From the sequence record PZ583738.1: a stretch of 64,000 nucleotides of DNA. One strand, written 5' to 3'. This DNA comes from a phage. How positions within the stretch are numbered: position 1 is the stretch's first letter; every line of letters starts with the position of its first letter. Position numbers and translations under genes: made by a program. The notes under the pieces were generated by a model, which did not search any database, was not told the origin of the DNA, and saw nothing but the letters and a program-made list of their open reading frames with translations. This document shows, piece after piece, positions 37,656-42,299 of this stretch.

Positions 37656-37818
37656 TAAAGGCAAGCCGACCCTCTCCTCATGAACGTCGCGTCCTCTGAG
37701 TGATGGACCTTTCCCTACCTGTAATAAGGTCGAGCCCAAGTGCGGTAAAGGGTTTACATACGGATACATGGGCGAATTATGTGCCAAGGAATGGCCCCAC
37801 CACTTAAAAGAGACAATT

Positions 37819-38364
37819 ATGAAAACGTTTTTAACCGGTAGTTATCTATCCCTGATGAATGCTTTTGCAAACCATTCTGATGCTAGAGTAGAACACATTT
37901 GTAATAGTGGGTTTTATGTACCCGATTCACAAACCTTGTTTAAAGAATGCTGCACCTTAAAACTTGATGGTGGGCGCCAATCTGGTAAAACTAAAGCAGT
38001 ATCCATTTTTGCTACGGAATGGTTAGCTGATGGCGGCTCTATTGTTATTTTGTCTAATAACACGGCATATGCTAATGTTTCGGCTACTGCAATCCGAAAG
38101 GAATATTTTAATAACCATACAGAAAGTATTAAGCACCGTTTGTACACTGATTCTGTTCGTAGTTTTATTGGTAACACTGCATGCAAATTCCGTGGATTAT
38201 CACTTTCACGGGTTCTGTATATAATTGATGAGCCTGTTAAAACACCTGATATGGATAAGATTTATGATGCCCACATAAAGGTTGTGCATTATTGCTGTCG
38301 TGCATCATGTGAAGAAACCAATCAAACCACACGTCCTCTGTTCTTTGTGATAGGAATGCAATGA
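37819..38364 (+). CDS. small P-loop NTPase-like protein
   Basis: 181 aa from ATG 37819; Walker A-like DGGRQSGKTKA and Walker B-like LYIIDEP. Confidence 0.5.
   Translation: MKTFLTGSYLSLMNAFANHSDARVEHICNSGFYVPDSQTLFKECCTLKLDGGRQSGKTKAVSIFATEWLADGGSIVILSNNTAYANVSATAIRKEYFNNHTESIKHRLYTDSVRSFIGNTACKFRGLSLSRVLYIIDEPVKTPDMDKIYDAHIKVVHYCCRASCEETNQTTRPLFFVIGMQ

Positions 38365-38867: not shown

Positions 38868-38871
<4 letters not shown>
38653..38871 (+). CDS. hypothetical small protein
   Basis: 72 aa from ATG 38653. Confidence 0.45.
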
Positions 38872-39450
<579 letters not shown>

Positions 39451-39976: not shown

Positions 39977-40519
39977 ATGAAAAAAGTAATCGCCACCTTA
40001 CTATTGACAGTTAGTATGTCTGCCCATAGCGTAGAGCCTACTTTCAGTAATGAACAAATGGGGAACCTCCAATATGCTTATGCGTTTGGAGAACAGTTCC
40101 AGAAAAATGGTAAGTACAAAGAAAATCCGCACCAACATAATGGTTTGGGATATATCATGGCTGGTTTAGCCTGGCAGGAAAGTTCTGCTGGGATTAATAC
40201 TGGATTAAATAAAGATAAGCATCATGCATATGGTATATTCCAAAATTATCTTCCAACCGTGCGCGAACGCGTGAAACAGGTTGGGTGGACAATGACAGAT
40301 AAAGAAATAATCAAGATGATAAGCAAGAGAGAGAACAGCGCACGCTGGGCTTATATTGAGCTTTCATACTGGTTGAATATTCATAAGGGGGATATAAGGA
40401 AAACACTATCATCATATAACGCAGGGTGGAATGTGAAAGCTGGTAATACGTATGCTTCACAGGTCCTAGAAAAAGCTAACTACTTAAAATCACGAGGCCT
40501 ATTAAAAACGGTGGATTAA
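39977..40519 (+). CDS. secreted lytic-transglycosylase-like (SLT domain) protein
   Basis: 180 aa; signal peptide MKKVIATLLLTVSMSAHS; SLT-like motifs GLAWQESS, AYGIFQ, SYNAGW. Confidence 0.5.
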   Translation: MKKVIATLLLTVSMSAHSVEPTFSNEQMGNLQYAYAFGEQFQKNGKYKENPHQHNGLGYIMAGLAWQESSAGINTGLNKDKHHAYGIFQNYLPTVRERVKQVGWTMTDKEIIKMISKRENSARWAYIELSYWLNIHKGDIRKTLSSYNAGWNVKAGNTYASQVLEKANYLKSRGLLKTVD

Positions 40520-40521
40520 AA

Positions 40522-40881
40522 ATGGTAAGAGTTATCACTTTAGCCATAGGGTTAGTATTCAGCATGGGAGGAATAGCTTCAGTACAGAGCGATGACAACA
40601 ACAGCATCATAGAATATGCAACGAGGACGGCTAAAGATTATTGCGCAGCAAGCAATGTGGATTGTGTAATCCAGTTCAGTGCCAAGCTCACCGCAGCCTA
40701 TAAAGATGGCCAAAATGATGTTGAACATACGCTTTTGAAAAAGAATGTATTATCCAACAAATATGAAAAGAAATTATTTGAAATGGATTGCATTCTATCA
40801 AGTGCAAAATATAAGGCGGCCTGCACCAGTATGGTTGACAGGTTAGTGGATTCATATAATAGAGGATTGAACTCTAAATGA
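40522..40881 (+). CDS. secreted/periplasmic protein of unknown function
   Basis: 119 aa; N-terminal signal-like hydrophobic segment; four cysteines. Confidence 0.45.
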   Translation: MVRVITLAIGLVFSMGGIASVQSDDNNSIIEYATRTAKDYCAASNVDCVIQFSAKLTAAYKDGQNDVEHTLLKKNVLSNKYEKKLFEMDCILSSAKYKAACTSMVDRLVDSYNRGLNSK

Positions 40882-41351
40882 TTACCCAGTATATTAAGGG
40901 CGATATCGTCGCCCTCTTTCTTAGTGGTAAAAACATTGCACATGGTTGCAATTGCTTCCATACAATGGGTTCAGGCGTAGCTGGTCAGTTGGCGAAGGCT
41001 TATCCAAGGATTTTAGAAATAGACAAAACCTCAACCGACTATGGTTACAGAGGAAAACTCGGTGATATGTCTATTGTTTTCAAATATTCCCGAGGTCCGT
41101 CAACTTGCTTTAATCTTTACACCCAATATGAACCAGGACCAAATCTTGATTATCATGCTTTAGTAAATTGTATGGTAGAATTAAATCGAGTCCTGAGTGA
41201 AGGAACACTATTCCGACCAGTGGTTTATATCCCACGGATTGGATGTGGTATTGCAGGTGGAGATTGGGAAAAGGTCTCTATGTTAATTGATATTTTTACC
41301 CCTGACATTGATTTGATAGTGGTGGATTATGAGCCAAGCCCGAATTCTTAA
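40878..41351 (+). CDS. macrodomain (ADP-ribose-binding/processing) protein
   Basis: 157 aa; GDIVALFLSGKNIAHGCNCFHTMGSGVAGQL fits macro-domain N-terminal signature; second glycine-rich motif IGCGIAGGDWE. Confidence 0.55.
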   Translation: MITQYIKGDIVALFLSGKNIAHGCNCFHTMGSGVAGQLAKAYPRILEIDKTSTDYGYRGKLGDMSIVFKYSRGPSTCFNLYTQYEPGPNLDYHALVNCMVELNRVLSEGTLFRPVVYIPRIGCGIAGGDWEKVSMLIDIFTPDIDLIVVDYEPSPNS

Positions 41352-41535
41352 AACGGCCAAATGTGAAAAATGTGAATGGCCAGTAATCGCAGCTTTGTGC
41401 AACGATGAAATGGAATGTGAATTTGATTACTGGTGGTACTGTTCTAATAAAGGATGTTCTAATCATAAGGGTGAAGGTTTTCATTCTGGTTATTGCGAAC
41501 ATCCTAAATTTGTGCGATATGGGGAACCGAAATGA
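41329..41535 (+). CDS. cysteine-rich small protein (putative zinc-binding)
   Basis: 68 aa with 8 Cys (CEKCEWP, CNDEMEC, YCSNKGC, YCEH). Confidence 0.4.
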   Translation: MSQARILKTAKCEKCEWPVIAALCNDEMECEFDYWWYCSNKGCSNHKGEGFHSGYCEHPKFVRYGEPK

Positions 41536-41726: not shown

Positions 41727-42299
41727 ATGGCGAGTTTAATTTATCATTACGCAGCAATGAATGCAGGCAAAACAGCTTCATTGCTGACTGCAGCTTATTC
41801 CTATAAAGAGCGTGGAATGAGTGTGCTTTTGCTAAAACCTGTTATTGATAATCGGGACTCGGAAGGCGAAATTAAATCACGCATCGGTATTAGCCAGGAA
41901 GCAAACCTGGTAACGGCCGACATGAACCTGTTTGAATTCTATAAATGGGCCGAGTCTCAAAAGGATATCCATTGTGTCCTGGTCGATGAAGCTCAATTTT
42001 TGTTACCAGAGCAAATTGACCAGTTAGCTCAAGTGGTTGATAATTACAATATCCCCGTTATGTGTTACGGGCTAAGAACAGATTTTCGGGGTCAATTATT
42101 TCCCGGTTCGGCCAGACTTCTGGCTATTTCGGATAAACTGGTTGAATTAAAGGGCGTCTGTCATTGCGGCCGGAAAGCAACCATGACCGCTCGAGTAATC
42201 GACGGTGCTGCTGTAAAGGACGGCGAGCAAGTATTGGTCGGTGGGAATGAATCGTACGTATCTTTGTGCAGAAAACATTGGCTCGAATTAACAAGCTGA
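41727..42299 (+). CDS. tk: thymidine kinase
   Basis: 190 aa; P-loop AMNAGKTASLL, VLVDEAQF, zinc ribbon CHCGRKA..C; size matches T4 tk (about 193 aa). Confidence 0.9.
   Translation: MASLIYHYAAMNAGKTASLLTAAYSYKERGMSVLLLKPVIDNRDSEGEIKSRIGISQEANLVTADMNLFEFYKWAESQKDIHCVLVDEAQFLLPEQIDQLAQVVDNYNIPVMCYGLRTDFRGQLFPGSARLLAISDKLVELKGVCHCGRKATMTARVIDGAAVKDGEQVLVGGNESYVSLCRKHWLELTS

What the first reader, a model, noticed from the sequence alone, without database searches (positions are those of the whole stretch)
40878..41351. Phage-encoded macrodomain protein next to tk
ORF 40878-41351 has a macrodomain-like signature (GDIVALFLSGKNIAHGCNCFHTMGSGVAGQL and a second glycine-rich loop). Macrodomains bind or hydrolyse ADP-ribose adducts and derivatives. 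In a phage this suggests reversal of ADP-ribosylation-based defence, or processing of NAD-derived signals.
Basis: partly seen in the sequence, partly recalled or inferred. Interest (0 to 1): 0.55.

Follow-up and report, generated by a model that had tools for sequence, protein, structure and literature searches.

The report
T4-type phage macrodomain Tk.4 (AdfM)

Summary

The window comes from a Gaprivervirus (SP18-like T-even phage; closest relative DK-13). The gene order regB-vs.1-vs-ORF-small ORFs-tk, and 57% identity to T4 Tk.4, make the ORF the tk.4 ortholog. A 2025 preprint showed that deleting T4 tk.4 sensitises T4 to DarTG2, and renamed the gene adfM.

The most likely mechanism is removal of ADP-ribose from thymidines that DarT2 adds to single-stranded phage DNA. 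This is inferred from homologs and was not tested for this protein.

Details added here:
- The catalytic position is an invariant Gln (Q83), as in Streptomyces SCO6735. DarG, TARG1 and PhiKZ AdfM have Lys there.
- There is no DarT-binding domain.
- The gene body is a recombinant patch (dS about 1.0 versus SP18; flanks 0.02-0.25) under purifying selection.

Verdict: observation confirmed, interpretation supported, already known, low interest.

The parts
40878..41351 (+). tk.4 / adfM ortholog: stand-alone 157-aa macrodomain protein (stop included)
40941..40976 (+). Loop 1 of the ADP-ribose pocket, H22-G33 (HGCNCFHTMGSG). H22, G23 and N25 correspond to SCO6735 His24, Val25 and Asn27.
   Evidence: H22, G23, N25, C26 and G33 are invariant in 88-89 homologs. 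Residue correspondence comes from the HMMER alignments to 5e3b. Roles of the residues are from PMC9411070.
41124..41126 (+). Codon CAA = Gln83, at the catalytic position (SCO6735 Gln85; TARG1 Lys84; DarG Lys80)
   Evidence: Q83 is invariant in the family. It aligns to Q of NMIGQH in BT1257/SCO6735 and to K of LITKK in TARG1, and to K of FPTKK in M. tuberculosis DarG. SCO6735 Q85A is inactive (PMC9411070).
41232..41267 (+). Loop 2 (diphosphate-binding), P119-W130 (PRIGCGIAGGDW). G122 and G124 correspond to SCO6735 Gly126 and Gly128. A126 sits where TARG1 has Asp125.
   Evidence: P119, I121, G122, G124 and W130 are invariant.
40922..41310 (+). Divergent (mosaic) body of the gene relative to sister Gapriverviruses
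   Evidence: The nucleotide alignment with SP18 is near-identical outside this patch and about 77% identical inside it. dS is 1.02 and omega 0.16 in the patch, against dS 0.016-0.25 in vs.1, vs, tk.2 and tk. Only DK-13 (99.3%) and pEC-M719-6WT.2 (93.5%) share the allele among 50,697 phage records.
41326..41335 (+). ATTATGAGCC, the single remaining copy of a 10-bp direct repeat. It marks the loss of a small ORF between tk.4 and the Zn-binding ORF and sets the C-terminal tail (EPSPNS) of this Tk.4.
   Evidence: Alignment with DK-13, which has a 177-bp ORF flanked by the repeat, and with SP18, which has tk.3 there. The same arrangement is present in four metagenome contigs.
40522..40881 (+). Context: vs (valyl-tRNA synthetase modifier), whose stop overlaps the tk.4 start (ATGA)
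   Evidence: PHROG 1256. Synteny with SP18 and T4.
41727..42299 (+). Context: tk (thymidine kinase)
   Evidence: Pfam TK E 4.1e-58. 100% aa identity to SP18 Tk.

Best explanation
The ORF is the tk.4 (adfM) gene of a T-even-type phage. It encodes an orphan, single-domain macrodomain ADP-ribosyl glycohydrolase of the ALC1-like class, made early in infection as part of the regB-vs.1-vs-tk.4-tk gene string. When the host carries a DarTG2 toxin-antitoxin defence, DarT2 ADP-ribosylates thymidines in single-stranded phage DNA and blocks replication. Tk.4 most likely binds the ADP-ribose adduct in its pocket (loop 1 H22-G33, loop 2 P119-W130) and hydrolyses the ribose-thymine bond, restoring replicable DNA. 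In effect it acts as a free-standing copy of the antitoxin's enzymatic half. The catalytic position carries Gln83 rather than the Lys of DarG and TARG1. The chemistry is therefore expected to resemble that proposed for Streptomyces SCO6735 (Gln positions the distal ribose; water/substrate-assisted cleavage) rather than a Lys-dependent route.

Shown here: the ORF, the fold class, orthology and synteny, the conserved residues, and the absence of a DarT-binding domain.

Taken from papers: the T4 tk.4 knockout phenotype, SCO6735 biochemistry, and PhiKZ AdfM biochemistry.

Inferred: that this 57%-identical ortholog has the same activity and the same target.
For: - Macro domain: Pfam PF01661 28.3 bits against a cut-off of 22.
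- Sequence matches to solved structures: BT1257, SCO6735, Poa1p, M. tuberculosis DarG macrodomain, TARG1. The family profile gives E 6.7e-21 to 1.4e-10 for the same set.
- Defence-system profiles: the only PADLOC hit is DarG (1.2e-8, macro part only), and the only NCBIfam hit is antitoxin DarG.
- Orthology: 57% identity over the full length to T4 Tk.4, with the same gene order as T4 and SP18.
- Function of the ortholog: in a transposon screen tk.4 was the only significant T4 hit on a DarTG2 host, and a clean tk.4 knockout is sensitised. The gene was named adfM (10.1101/2025.11.20.689424).
- Biochemistry of the Gln type: SCO6735 removes ADP-ribose from DarT-modified ssDNA, rescues cells from DarT, and Q85A is dead (PMC9411070). 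Its His24/Asn27/Gln85/Gly126/Gly128 equivalents (H22/N25/Q83/G122/G124) are invariant in 88 homologs.
- Independent precedent: PhiKZ gp104 AdfM removes ADP-ribose from DarT2-modified DNA and protects the phage (PMC13309987).
- Selection: purifying, omega 0.16-0.20.
Against: - No experiment exists for this protein. The T4 evidence is genetic only, from one DarTG2 system, in a preprint.
- Identity to T4 Tk.4 is only 57%.
- The two lysines that SCO6735 uses to position DNA (Lys34, Lys89) are Ser32 and Glu85 here. The loop after the catalytic Gln is 5-6 residues shorter than in BT1257/SCO6735. The protein is acidic (pI 5.5), unlike the electropositive DNA groove described for SCO6735.
- Poa1p's His23/Ser30 positions are matched by H22/T29, so an ADP-ribose-1''-phosphate phosphatase activity cannot be excluded from sequence.
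- SCO6735 and TARG1 also act on proteins, so additional substrates are possible.
Confidence: 0.75

Rival explanations
1. A housekeeping 'phosphatase' or small-molecule processor. The protein would hydrolyse ADP-ribose-1''-phosphate (as yeast Poa1p does), O-acetyl-ADP-ribose, or other soluble ADP-ribose derivatives arising from RNA repair or NAD turnover, rather than DNA adducts. This is the meaning of the 'phosphatase / A1pp motif' label in GenBank.
For: - T4, SP18 and many relatives annotate the gene as 'phosphatase; contains A1pp phosphatase motif'.
- Poa1p's His23 and Ser30 positions align to H22 and T29.
- A 2022 comparative study proposed that phage Macro domains favour soluble ADPr derivatives (PMC9503650).
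Against: - The only phenotype recorded for the ortholog is DarTG2 sensitivity.
- The label is a motif-based annotation, not an assay.
- The closest sequence relatives with solved structures (BT1257, SCO6735) belong to the Gln type, for which DNA de-ADP-ribosylation has been shown.
Confidence: 0.1
2. A protein de-ADP-ribosylase. It would remove ADP-ribose from host or phage proteins, for example Glu/Asp-linked adducts. This could tune the phage's own Alt/ModA/ModB modifications or undo a host protein-targeting ADP-ribosyltransferase.
For: TARG1 and SCO6735, both close in fold, hydrolyse Glu/Asp-linked protein mono-ADP-ribose (PMC9411070). T-even phages are known, from established knowledge, to encode three ADP-ribosyltransferases.
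Against: - The TARG1 Lys84/Asp125 dyad is absent (Q83/A126).
- From general knowledge, T4 Alt/Mod enzymes modify arginine, a linkage macrodomains are not known to cleave.
- No phenotype supports this role.
- It would not explain the DarTG2-specific loss of tk.4 mutants.
Confidence: 0.07
3. Mainly a stoichiometric DarT2 inhibitor. The macrodomain would bind and block the toxin directly, with catalysis secondary. Allele diversity would then track DarT2 diversity.
For: - Catalytically dead SCO6735, DarG and TARG1 macrodomains all inhibit DarT in vitro, and SCO6735 does so most strongly (PMC9411070).
- The gene body here is a swapped, long-diverged allele.
- Substitutions relative to SP18 lie outside the invariant pocket residues.
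Against: - The DarT-binding C-terminal domain of DarG is absent: 157 aa, matching profile positions 15-146 of 329.
- Pocket and catalytic residues are invariant across 88 homologs, which argues for an enzymatic role.
- omega is 0.16, with no sign of positive selection at gene level.
Confidence: 0.06
4. A degrader or sponge of NAD-derived immune signals (Thoeris gcADPR or His-ADPR).
Against: - That class is structurally more distant than the DarG/TARG1 class.
- No genetic or biochemical evidence exists for it.
- The window already has a separate sponge-type gene (Acb2/Tad1 hairpin domain, 38868-39146).
Confidence: 0.02

Closest known systems
T4 Tk.4 = AdfM (anti-DarT factor Macrodomain), NP_049723; bioRxiv 10.1101/2025.11.20.689424
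   Same: - Same position in the genome (vs - tk.4 - small tk.x ORFs - tk) and the same 4-nt overlap with vs.
- Same length (155 vs 157 aa), with 57% identity end to end.
- Same invariant residues, including the catalytic-site Gln (LYTQ).
   Different: - 43% of residues differ.
- T4 has PRIGAGIGKGNW where this protein has PRIGCGIAGGDW.
- T4 has tk.3 and tk.1, which this phage lacks.
- The DarTG2 phenotype was tested only in T4.
Streptomyces coelicolor SCO6735 (PDB 5E3B) and Bacteroides BT1257 (2FG1/2AFC): Gln-type ALC1-like macrodomains
   Same: - Gln at the catalytic position, plus the His/Asn/Gly-x-Gly equivalents and the same GCG(L/I)AGG(T/D)W loop.
- SCO6735 cleaves thymidine-linked ADP-ribose on DNA.
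   Different: - Cellular proteins, only 26-31% identical.
- This phage family has a loop after the Gln that is 5-6 residues shorter.
- It lacks the Lys34/Lys89 equivalents (S32/E85).
- It is acidic.
DarG antitoxin of DarTG2 (T. aquaticus 5M31/5M3E, M. tuberculosis 5M3I)
   Different: - Lys80 is replaced by Gln83.
- There is no C-terminal DarT-binding domain and no adjacent darT.
- NCBIfam score is 27.6 against a cut-off of 250.
- About 23-25% identity.
PhiKZ gp104 AdfM (chimallivirus DarG2-like antitoxin; Cell Rep 2026, PMC13309987)
   Same: A stand-alone phage macrodomain of about 160 aa that counters DarTG2. The biochemical removal of ADP-ribose from DarT2-modified DNA has been shown.
   Different: - Only 23% identical (hhalign probability 95.7%).
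- It keeps the DarG-type FPTK lysine, so it is a separate, Lys-type recruitment of the fold.
- It is imported into the phage nucleus.
Human TARG1/OARD1 (4J5S) and yeast Poa1p (6LFQ)
   Different: The TARG1 Lys84/Asp125 dyad is Q83/A126 here. Poa1p is a phosphatase of Appr1p, with a long insertion between the two halves.

Membership tests
Macro domain superfamily (Pfam PF01661) | Profile match above the curated gathering score | tested here: met
   28.3 bits against a cut-off of 22, residues 22-134 covering profile positions 2-115 of 118.
Macro domain superfamily (Pfam PF01661) | Three-layer alpha/beta/alpha macro fold | tested here: met
   [not shown]
Macro domain superfamily (Pfam PF01661) | Binds ADP-ribose | not testable with these tools
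   Only the conserved pocket loops (H22-G33, P119-W130) are seen.
ALC1-like macrodomain class (TARG1 / DarG / Poa1p / SCO6735) | Closest structural and sequence relatives are members of this class, clearly ahead of MacroD, viral Mac1 and PARG classes | tested here: met
   [not shown]
T4 Tk.4 / AdfM orthologous group | Full-length homology to T4 Tk.4 | tested here: met
   57% identity over 154 of 157 residues, E 2e-69. PHROG 335 E 6.7e-64.
T4 Tk.4 / AdfM orthologous group | Conserved position between vs and tk in the T-even early region | tested here: met
   regB, vs.1, vs, ORF, Zn-binding ORF, tk.2, tk, rI.
T4 Tk.4 / AdfM orthologous group | Needed for growth on DarTG2-carrying hosts | not testable with these tools
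   Shown for T4 only.
DarG antitoxin (type II TA system DarTG2; NCBIfam NF048014) | Full-length match above the curated cut-off, i.e. macrodomain plus C-terminal DarT-binding domain | tested here: not met
   27.6 bits against a cut-off of 250. Only profile positions 19-149 of 338 are matched. The PADLOC DarG match covers 15-146 of 329. The protein is 157 aa.
DarG antitoxin (type II TA system DarTG2; NCBIfam NF048014) | Catalytic lysine (Lys80 in T. aquaticus DarG) | tested here: not met
   Gln83 aligns with the Lys of FPTKK in M. tuberculosis DarG and with Lys84 of TARG1.
DarG antitoxin (type II TA system DarTG2; NCBIfam NF048014) | Encoded next to a darT toxin gene | tested here: not met
   The neighbours are vs and a phage Zn-binding ORF. 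No ART-like gene lies in 37.7-44.3 kb.
Gln-type subclass (SCO6735 / BT1257) | Gln at the catalytic position, with the His24/Asn27/Gly126/Gly128 equivalents | tested here: met
   Q83, H22, N25, G122 and G124 are all invariant in 88-89 homologs.
Gln-type subclass (SCO6735 / BT1257) | Elongated 'mobile loop' after the catalytic Gln, said to characterise the subclass (PMC9411070) | tested here: not met
   The family profile needs a 6-residue insertion in BT1257 and 2+3 residues in SCO6735 at this loop.
Gln-type subclass (SCO6735 / BT1257) | DNA-positioning lysines Lys34 and Lys89 | tested here: not met
   They align to S32 and E85. pI is 5.5.
TARG1-type glycohydrolase | Lys84/Asp125 catalytic dyad | tested here: not met
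   Q83 and A126 occupy these positions.
Poa1p-type ADP-ribose-1''-phosphate phosphatase | His23 and Ser30 active-site residues | tested here: inconclusive
   H22 and T29 align to them. His is shared by the whole class, and Thr for Ser is conservative. Only the N-terminal half aligns significantly.

The most novel reading that the evidence does not exclude
T-even Tk.4/AdfM is a mechanistically distinct, Gln-type DNA de-ADP-ribosylase. It has an SCO6735-like catalytic centre on a TARG1-length scaffold, and it was recruited by phages independently of the Lys-type PhiKZ AdfM. The rare, long-diverged allele carried here was swapped in by recombination and is shared with only two sequenced phages. 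On this reading it reflects allele-level matching to different host DarT2 variants, for example through direct toxin binding, so that tk.4 alleles would have different DarTG2 host ranges.
Probability: 0.15. Interest if true: 0.45.

Novelty: already known. Interest (0 to 1): 0.2.

Why it matters
ADP-ribosylation of phage DNA by DarT toxins is a widespread bacterial defence, and phage enzymes that erase the mark decide which hosts a phage can infect. Recognising this ORF as adfM lets one predict that this phage, like T4, resists DarTG2. It also adds one more anti-defence gene to a neighbourhood that holds an Acb2-type sponge gene. The gene family, its macro-domain nature and its anti-DarTG2 role are already described, so the finding changes little. 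The modest additions are the Gln-type catalytic site, which contrasts with DarG and PhiKZ AdfM, and the evidence that the gene body is exchanged as a cassette between T-even phages.

Tried and rejected
- Promoter and terminator scan of 38.8-42.7 kb: counts do not exceed shuffled expectation (12 vs 10.8; 4 vs 2.8). No dedicated promoter or terminator can be claimed.
- In-situ positive selection as the cause of the divergent gene body: rejected. omega is 0.16 and dS about 1.0, which indicates import of an old allele.
- Assembly artefact as the cause of the missing small ORF after tk.4: rejected. Four independent metagenome contigs show the same arrangement.
- A link to CmdTAC (mRNA ADP-ribosylation): CmdTAC defends strongly against T4 although T4 has tk.4 (PMC11618068). 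Tk.4 evidently does not neutralise it.
- A link to Thoeris: the only macro domains found in the paper checked are host ThsA sensors.
- adfN (T4 gene 30.3, anti-DarTG1) lies elsewhere in T4. I did not look for it in this window.
- Conserved hairpin at 40897-40915: the fold z-score is -3.1 and the stem is kept in several genera, but pair counting shows conservation rather than compensatory change. Left unresolved.
- Antisense ORFs 40698-40961 and 41296-41502: they overlap conserved + strand genes and were not examined further.
It was repeated with permitted rows only.

Full report
**Observation**

The quoted peptide is residues 8-38. The second Gly-rich loop is PRIGCGIAGGDW (residues 119-130).

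The start codon overlaps the stop of the upstream gene (ATGA at 40878-40881), and the 3' end overlaps the next ORF by 23 nt, as is usual in tightly packed T-even early regions. A simple promoter/terminator scan of 38.8-42.7 kb found no more sites than in shuffled sequence, so the gene appears to be read as part of a longer + strand gene string.

**What the window is**

The 2.5 kb around the ORF is 98.9% identical to Escherichia phage DK-13 and about 95% identical to Shigella phage SP18 and other Gapriverviruses (Straboviridae, Tevenvirinae).

The neighbours are:
- RegB (Pfam REGB_T4)
- vs.1 (PHROG 600)
- vs (valyl-tRNA synthetase modifier)
- the ORF itself
- a phage Zn-binding ORF (PF23895)
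- tk.2 (DUF7438)
- thymidine kinase
- the rI antiholin

This is the T4 order regB-vs.1-vs-tk.4-tk.3-tk.2-tk.1-tk-rI.1-rI. The ORF is therefore the tk.4 ortholog. It is 57% identical to T4 Tk.4 over the full length and 79% identical to SP18 Tk.4. 'Next to tk' is nearly right: two small ORFs lie between.

**Is it a macrodomain?**

Yes. The evidence is as follows.
- Pfam Macro scores 28.3 bits against a gathering score of 22.
- The single sequence finds BT1257 (2AFC/2FG1), SCO6735 (5E3B), Poa1p (6LFU), the M. tuberculosis DarG macrodomain (5M3I) and TARG1 (4J5R) among solved structures.
- A profile of 88 homologs raises these matches to E 6.7e-21 (BT1257), 5e-18 (SCO6735), 3e-16 (TARG1), 3.6e-14 (Poa1p) and 6e-12 / 1.4e-10 (DarG). 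Coronavirus Mac1 trails at about 7e-4.
- An AlphaFold2 model built on 89 sequences is confident (mean pLDDT 95.5, pTM 0.90).
- Foldseek against the PDB returns TARG1, DarG, Poa1p, BT1257 and SCO6735 first.

The protein thus belongs to the 'ALC1-like' class, in the terminology of PMC9411070.

**What is known about the ortholog**

Three papers bear on function.
- A transposon-sequencing study of T4 (bioRxiv 10.1101/2025.11.20.689424) found tk.4 as the only significant hit lost on a host expressing DarTG2. A clean knockout was sensitised. The gene was named adfM (anti-DarT factor Macrodomain), and the authors proposed enzymatic removal of ADP-ribose from DNA.
- Earlier work had shown that T4 lacking adfA and adfN (gene 30.3) stays resistant to DarTG2, and predicted a further factor (PMC11825919).
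- Independently, the stand-alone macrodomain gp104 of PhiKZ, also called AdfM, removes ADP-ribose from DarT2-modified DNA in vitro and protects chimalliviruses from DarTG2 (PMC13309987).

Macro domains are very common in myoviruses, about 41% according to PMC9503650. In the phage collection, relatives of this ORF occur in 2,735 of 50,697 records, from T-even phages to rV5-, FelixO1-, phi92- and PAK_P1-like phages. Several relatives are already annotated 'macro domain protein', 'Poa1p-like', 'Appr-1-p processing' or 'phosphatase'.

**Mechanism and what is specific here**

The residue aligned with the catalytic Lys of TARG1 (Lys84) and DarG (Lys80) is Gln83 (codon CAA, 41124-41126). It is invariant in 88-89 homologs. 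TARG1 Asp125 corresponds to Ala126.

This is the arrangement of Streptomyces SCO6735 and Bacteroides BT1257. For SCO6735, removal of thymidine-linked ADP-ribose from DarT-modified ssDNA, rescue from DarT toxicity, and complete loss of activity in Q85A have all been shown (PMC9411070). The equivalents of SCO6735 His24, Asn27, Gly126 and Gly128 (H22, N25, G122, G124) are likewise invariant. I therefore expect Gln-dependent, water/substrate-assisted cleavage rather than Lys chemistry. This is an inference.

The phage family departs from SCO6735 in three ways:
- The loop following the Gln is 5-6 residues shorter. It is TARG1-like in length.
- The DNA-positioning Lys34 and Lys89 are Ser32 and Glu85.
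- The protein is acidic, with pI 5.5.

PhiKZ AdfM is only 23% identical and keeps the DarG-type FPTK lysine. Phages have therefore recruited at least two different branches of this class under the same name.

The protein is not a DarG in the family sense:
- It covers only the macro part of the DarG profiles (PADLOC 15-146 of 329; NCBIfam 27.6 bits against a cut-off of 250).
- It has no DarT-binding domain.
- It has no neighbouring darT.

**Rivals**

- Poa1p-like Appr1p phosphatase or other small-molecule role, which is the meaning of the database label 'phosphatase'. It cannot be excluded from sequence, since H22/T29 align with Poa1p His23/Ser30. It rests on a motif, whereas the DarTG2 phenotype is experimental.
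- Protein de-ADP-ribosylation. It is possible as a side activity, as for SCO6735 and TARG1, but the TARG1 dyad is absent.
- Stoichiometric inhibition of DarT. It is conceivable, since inactive macrodomains inhibit DarT in vitro. The invariant pocket argues for catalysis.
- Thoeris-signal processing. It has no support.
- CmdTAC. It still defends against T4, so Tk.4 does not counter that mRNA-directed ADP-ribosyltransferase.

**Local evolution**

Against SP18, all neighbouring proteins are 95.7-100% identical, but Tk.4 is only 79% identical. The nucleotide alignment shows sharp borders. Sequence is identical up to about 40921, about 77% identical to about 41310, then identical again.

In the patch dS is 1.02 and omega 0.16, whereas vs.1, vs, tk.2 and tk have dS 0.016-0.25. 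This is the signature of an imported, long-separated allele under purifying selection, not of rapid adaptive change in place. Among sequenced phages only DK-13 (99.3%) and pEC-M719-6WT.2 (93.5%) carry this allele.

Immediately downstream, the window lacks a small ORF that DK-13 (177 bp) and SP18 (tk.3) have. The junction is a 10-bp direct repeat, ATTATGAGCC (41326-41335), and the loss changes the last residues of Tk.4. The exact protein and the same arrangement occur in four independent metagenome assemblies.

**Verdict**

The feature is an ortholog of a gene whose fold has long been annotated and whose function has recently been reported. It is already known, and of low interest apart from the Gln-type active site and the cassette-like allele exchange, both of which are easy to test.

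Noticed in passing
window 40897-40915 (+), inside codons 7-13 of tk.4: GC-rich 8-bp hairpin AGGGCGAUAUCGUCGCCCU followed by a U-rich stretch. The 81-nt region folds better than all 200 shuffles (z -3.1). The stem is kept in SP18, T4, JLBYU22, IME341 and the Krischvirus KFS-EC while the loop base at the third codon position varies. It is lost in Entb_45, Klebsiella TU02 and Acinetobacter fHyAci03. Pair counting shows conservation rather than compensatory change, so it may only reflect the KGDIVAL codons.
   Followed up: partly
window 38868-39146 (+): A 92-aa ORF with the Acb2/Tad1 hairpin domain (PF24729, E 1.3e-15), at the position of T4 vs.4. From my own knowledge, T4 vs.4 is the Acb2 anti-CBASS cyclic-nucleotide sponge. 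A second anti-defence gene therefore lies 1.7 kb upstream of tk.4.
   Followed up: partly
window 41326-41335 and flanks: Precise absence of a small ORF between tk.4 and the Zn-binding ORF. DK-13 has a 177-bp ORF and SP18 has tk.3 at this site. The junction is one copy of a 10-bp direct repeat, ATTATGAGCC, which suggests deletion by short-repeat recombination. The same arrangement is seen in four metagenome contigs.
   Followed up: yes
window 40922-41310: The body of tk.4 is a mosaic patch. dS is about 1.0 against SP18, while the flanking genes have dS 0.016-0.25, and omega is 0.16. The allele is shared only with DK-13 and pEC-M719-6WT.2 in the phage collection.
   Followed up: yes
window 39977-40519 (+): The vs.1 ortholog (180 aa) has a hydrophobic N-terminus and a weak, sub-threshold match to the SLT lytic transglycosylase domain (E 0.0088, 16 bits against a cut-off of 21.3). 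Some relatives are annotated as an SLT-domain protein.
   Followed up: no
window 40522-40881 (+): The vs gene (valyl-tRNA synthetase modifier) lies directly upstream and is translationally overlapped with tk.4. The same preprint that named adfM reports T4 vs as the most depleted gene in minimal medium.
   Followed up: no
window 26004-26156 (+): Two adjacent tRNA genes, tRNA-Met(CAT) and tRNA-Arg(TCT), as expected for the T-even tRNA cluster region.
   Followed up: no
window 37768-38364 (+): A 198-aa ORF with a sub-threshold match to the N-terminal domain of T4-type large terminase / P-loop (E 2.4e-4, 21.3 bits against a cut-off of 22), in an early-gene region where a terminase is not expected.
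   Followed up: no
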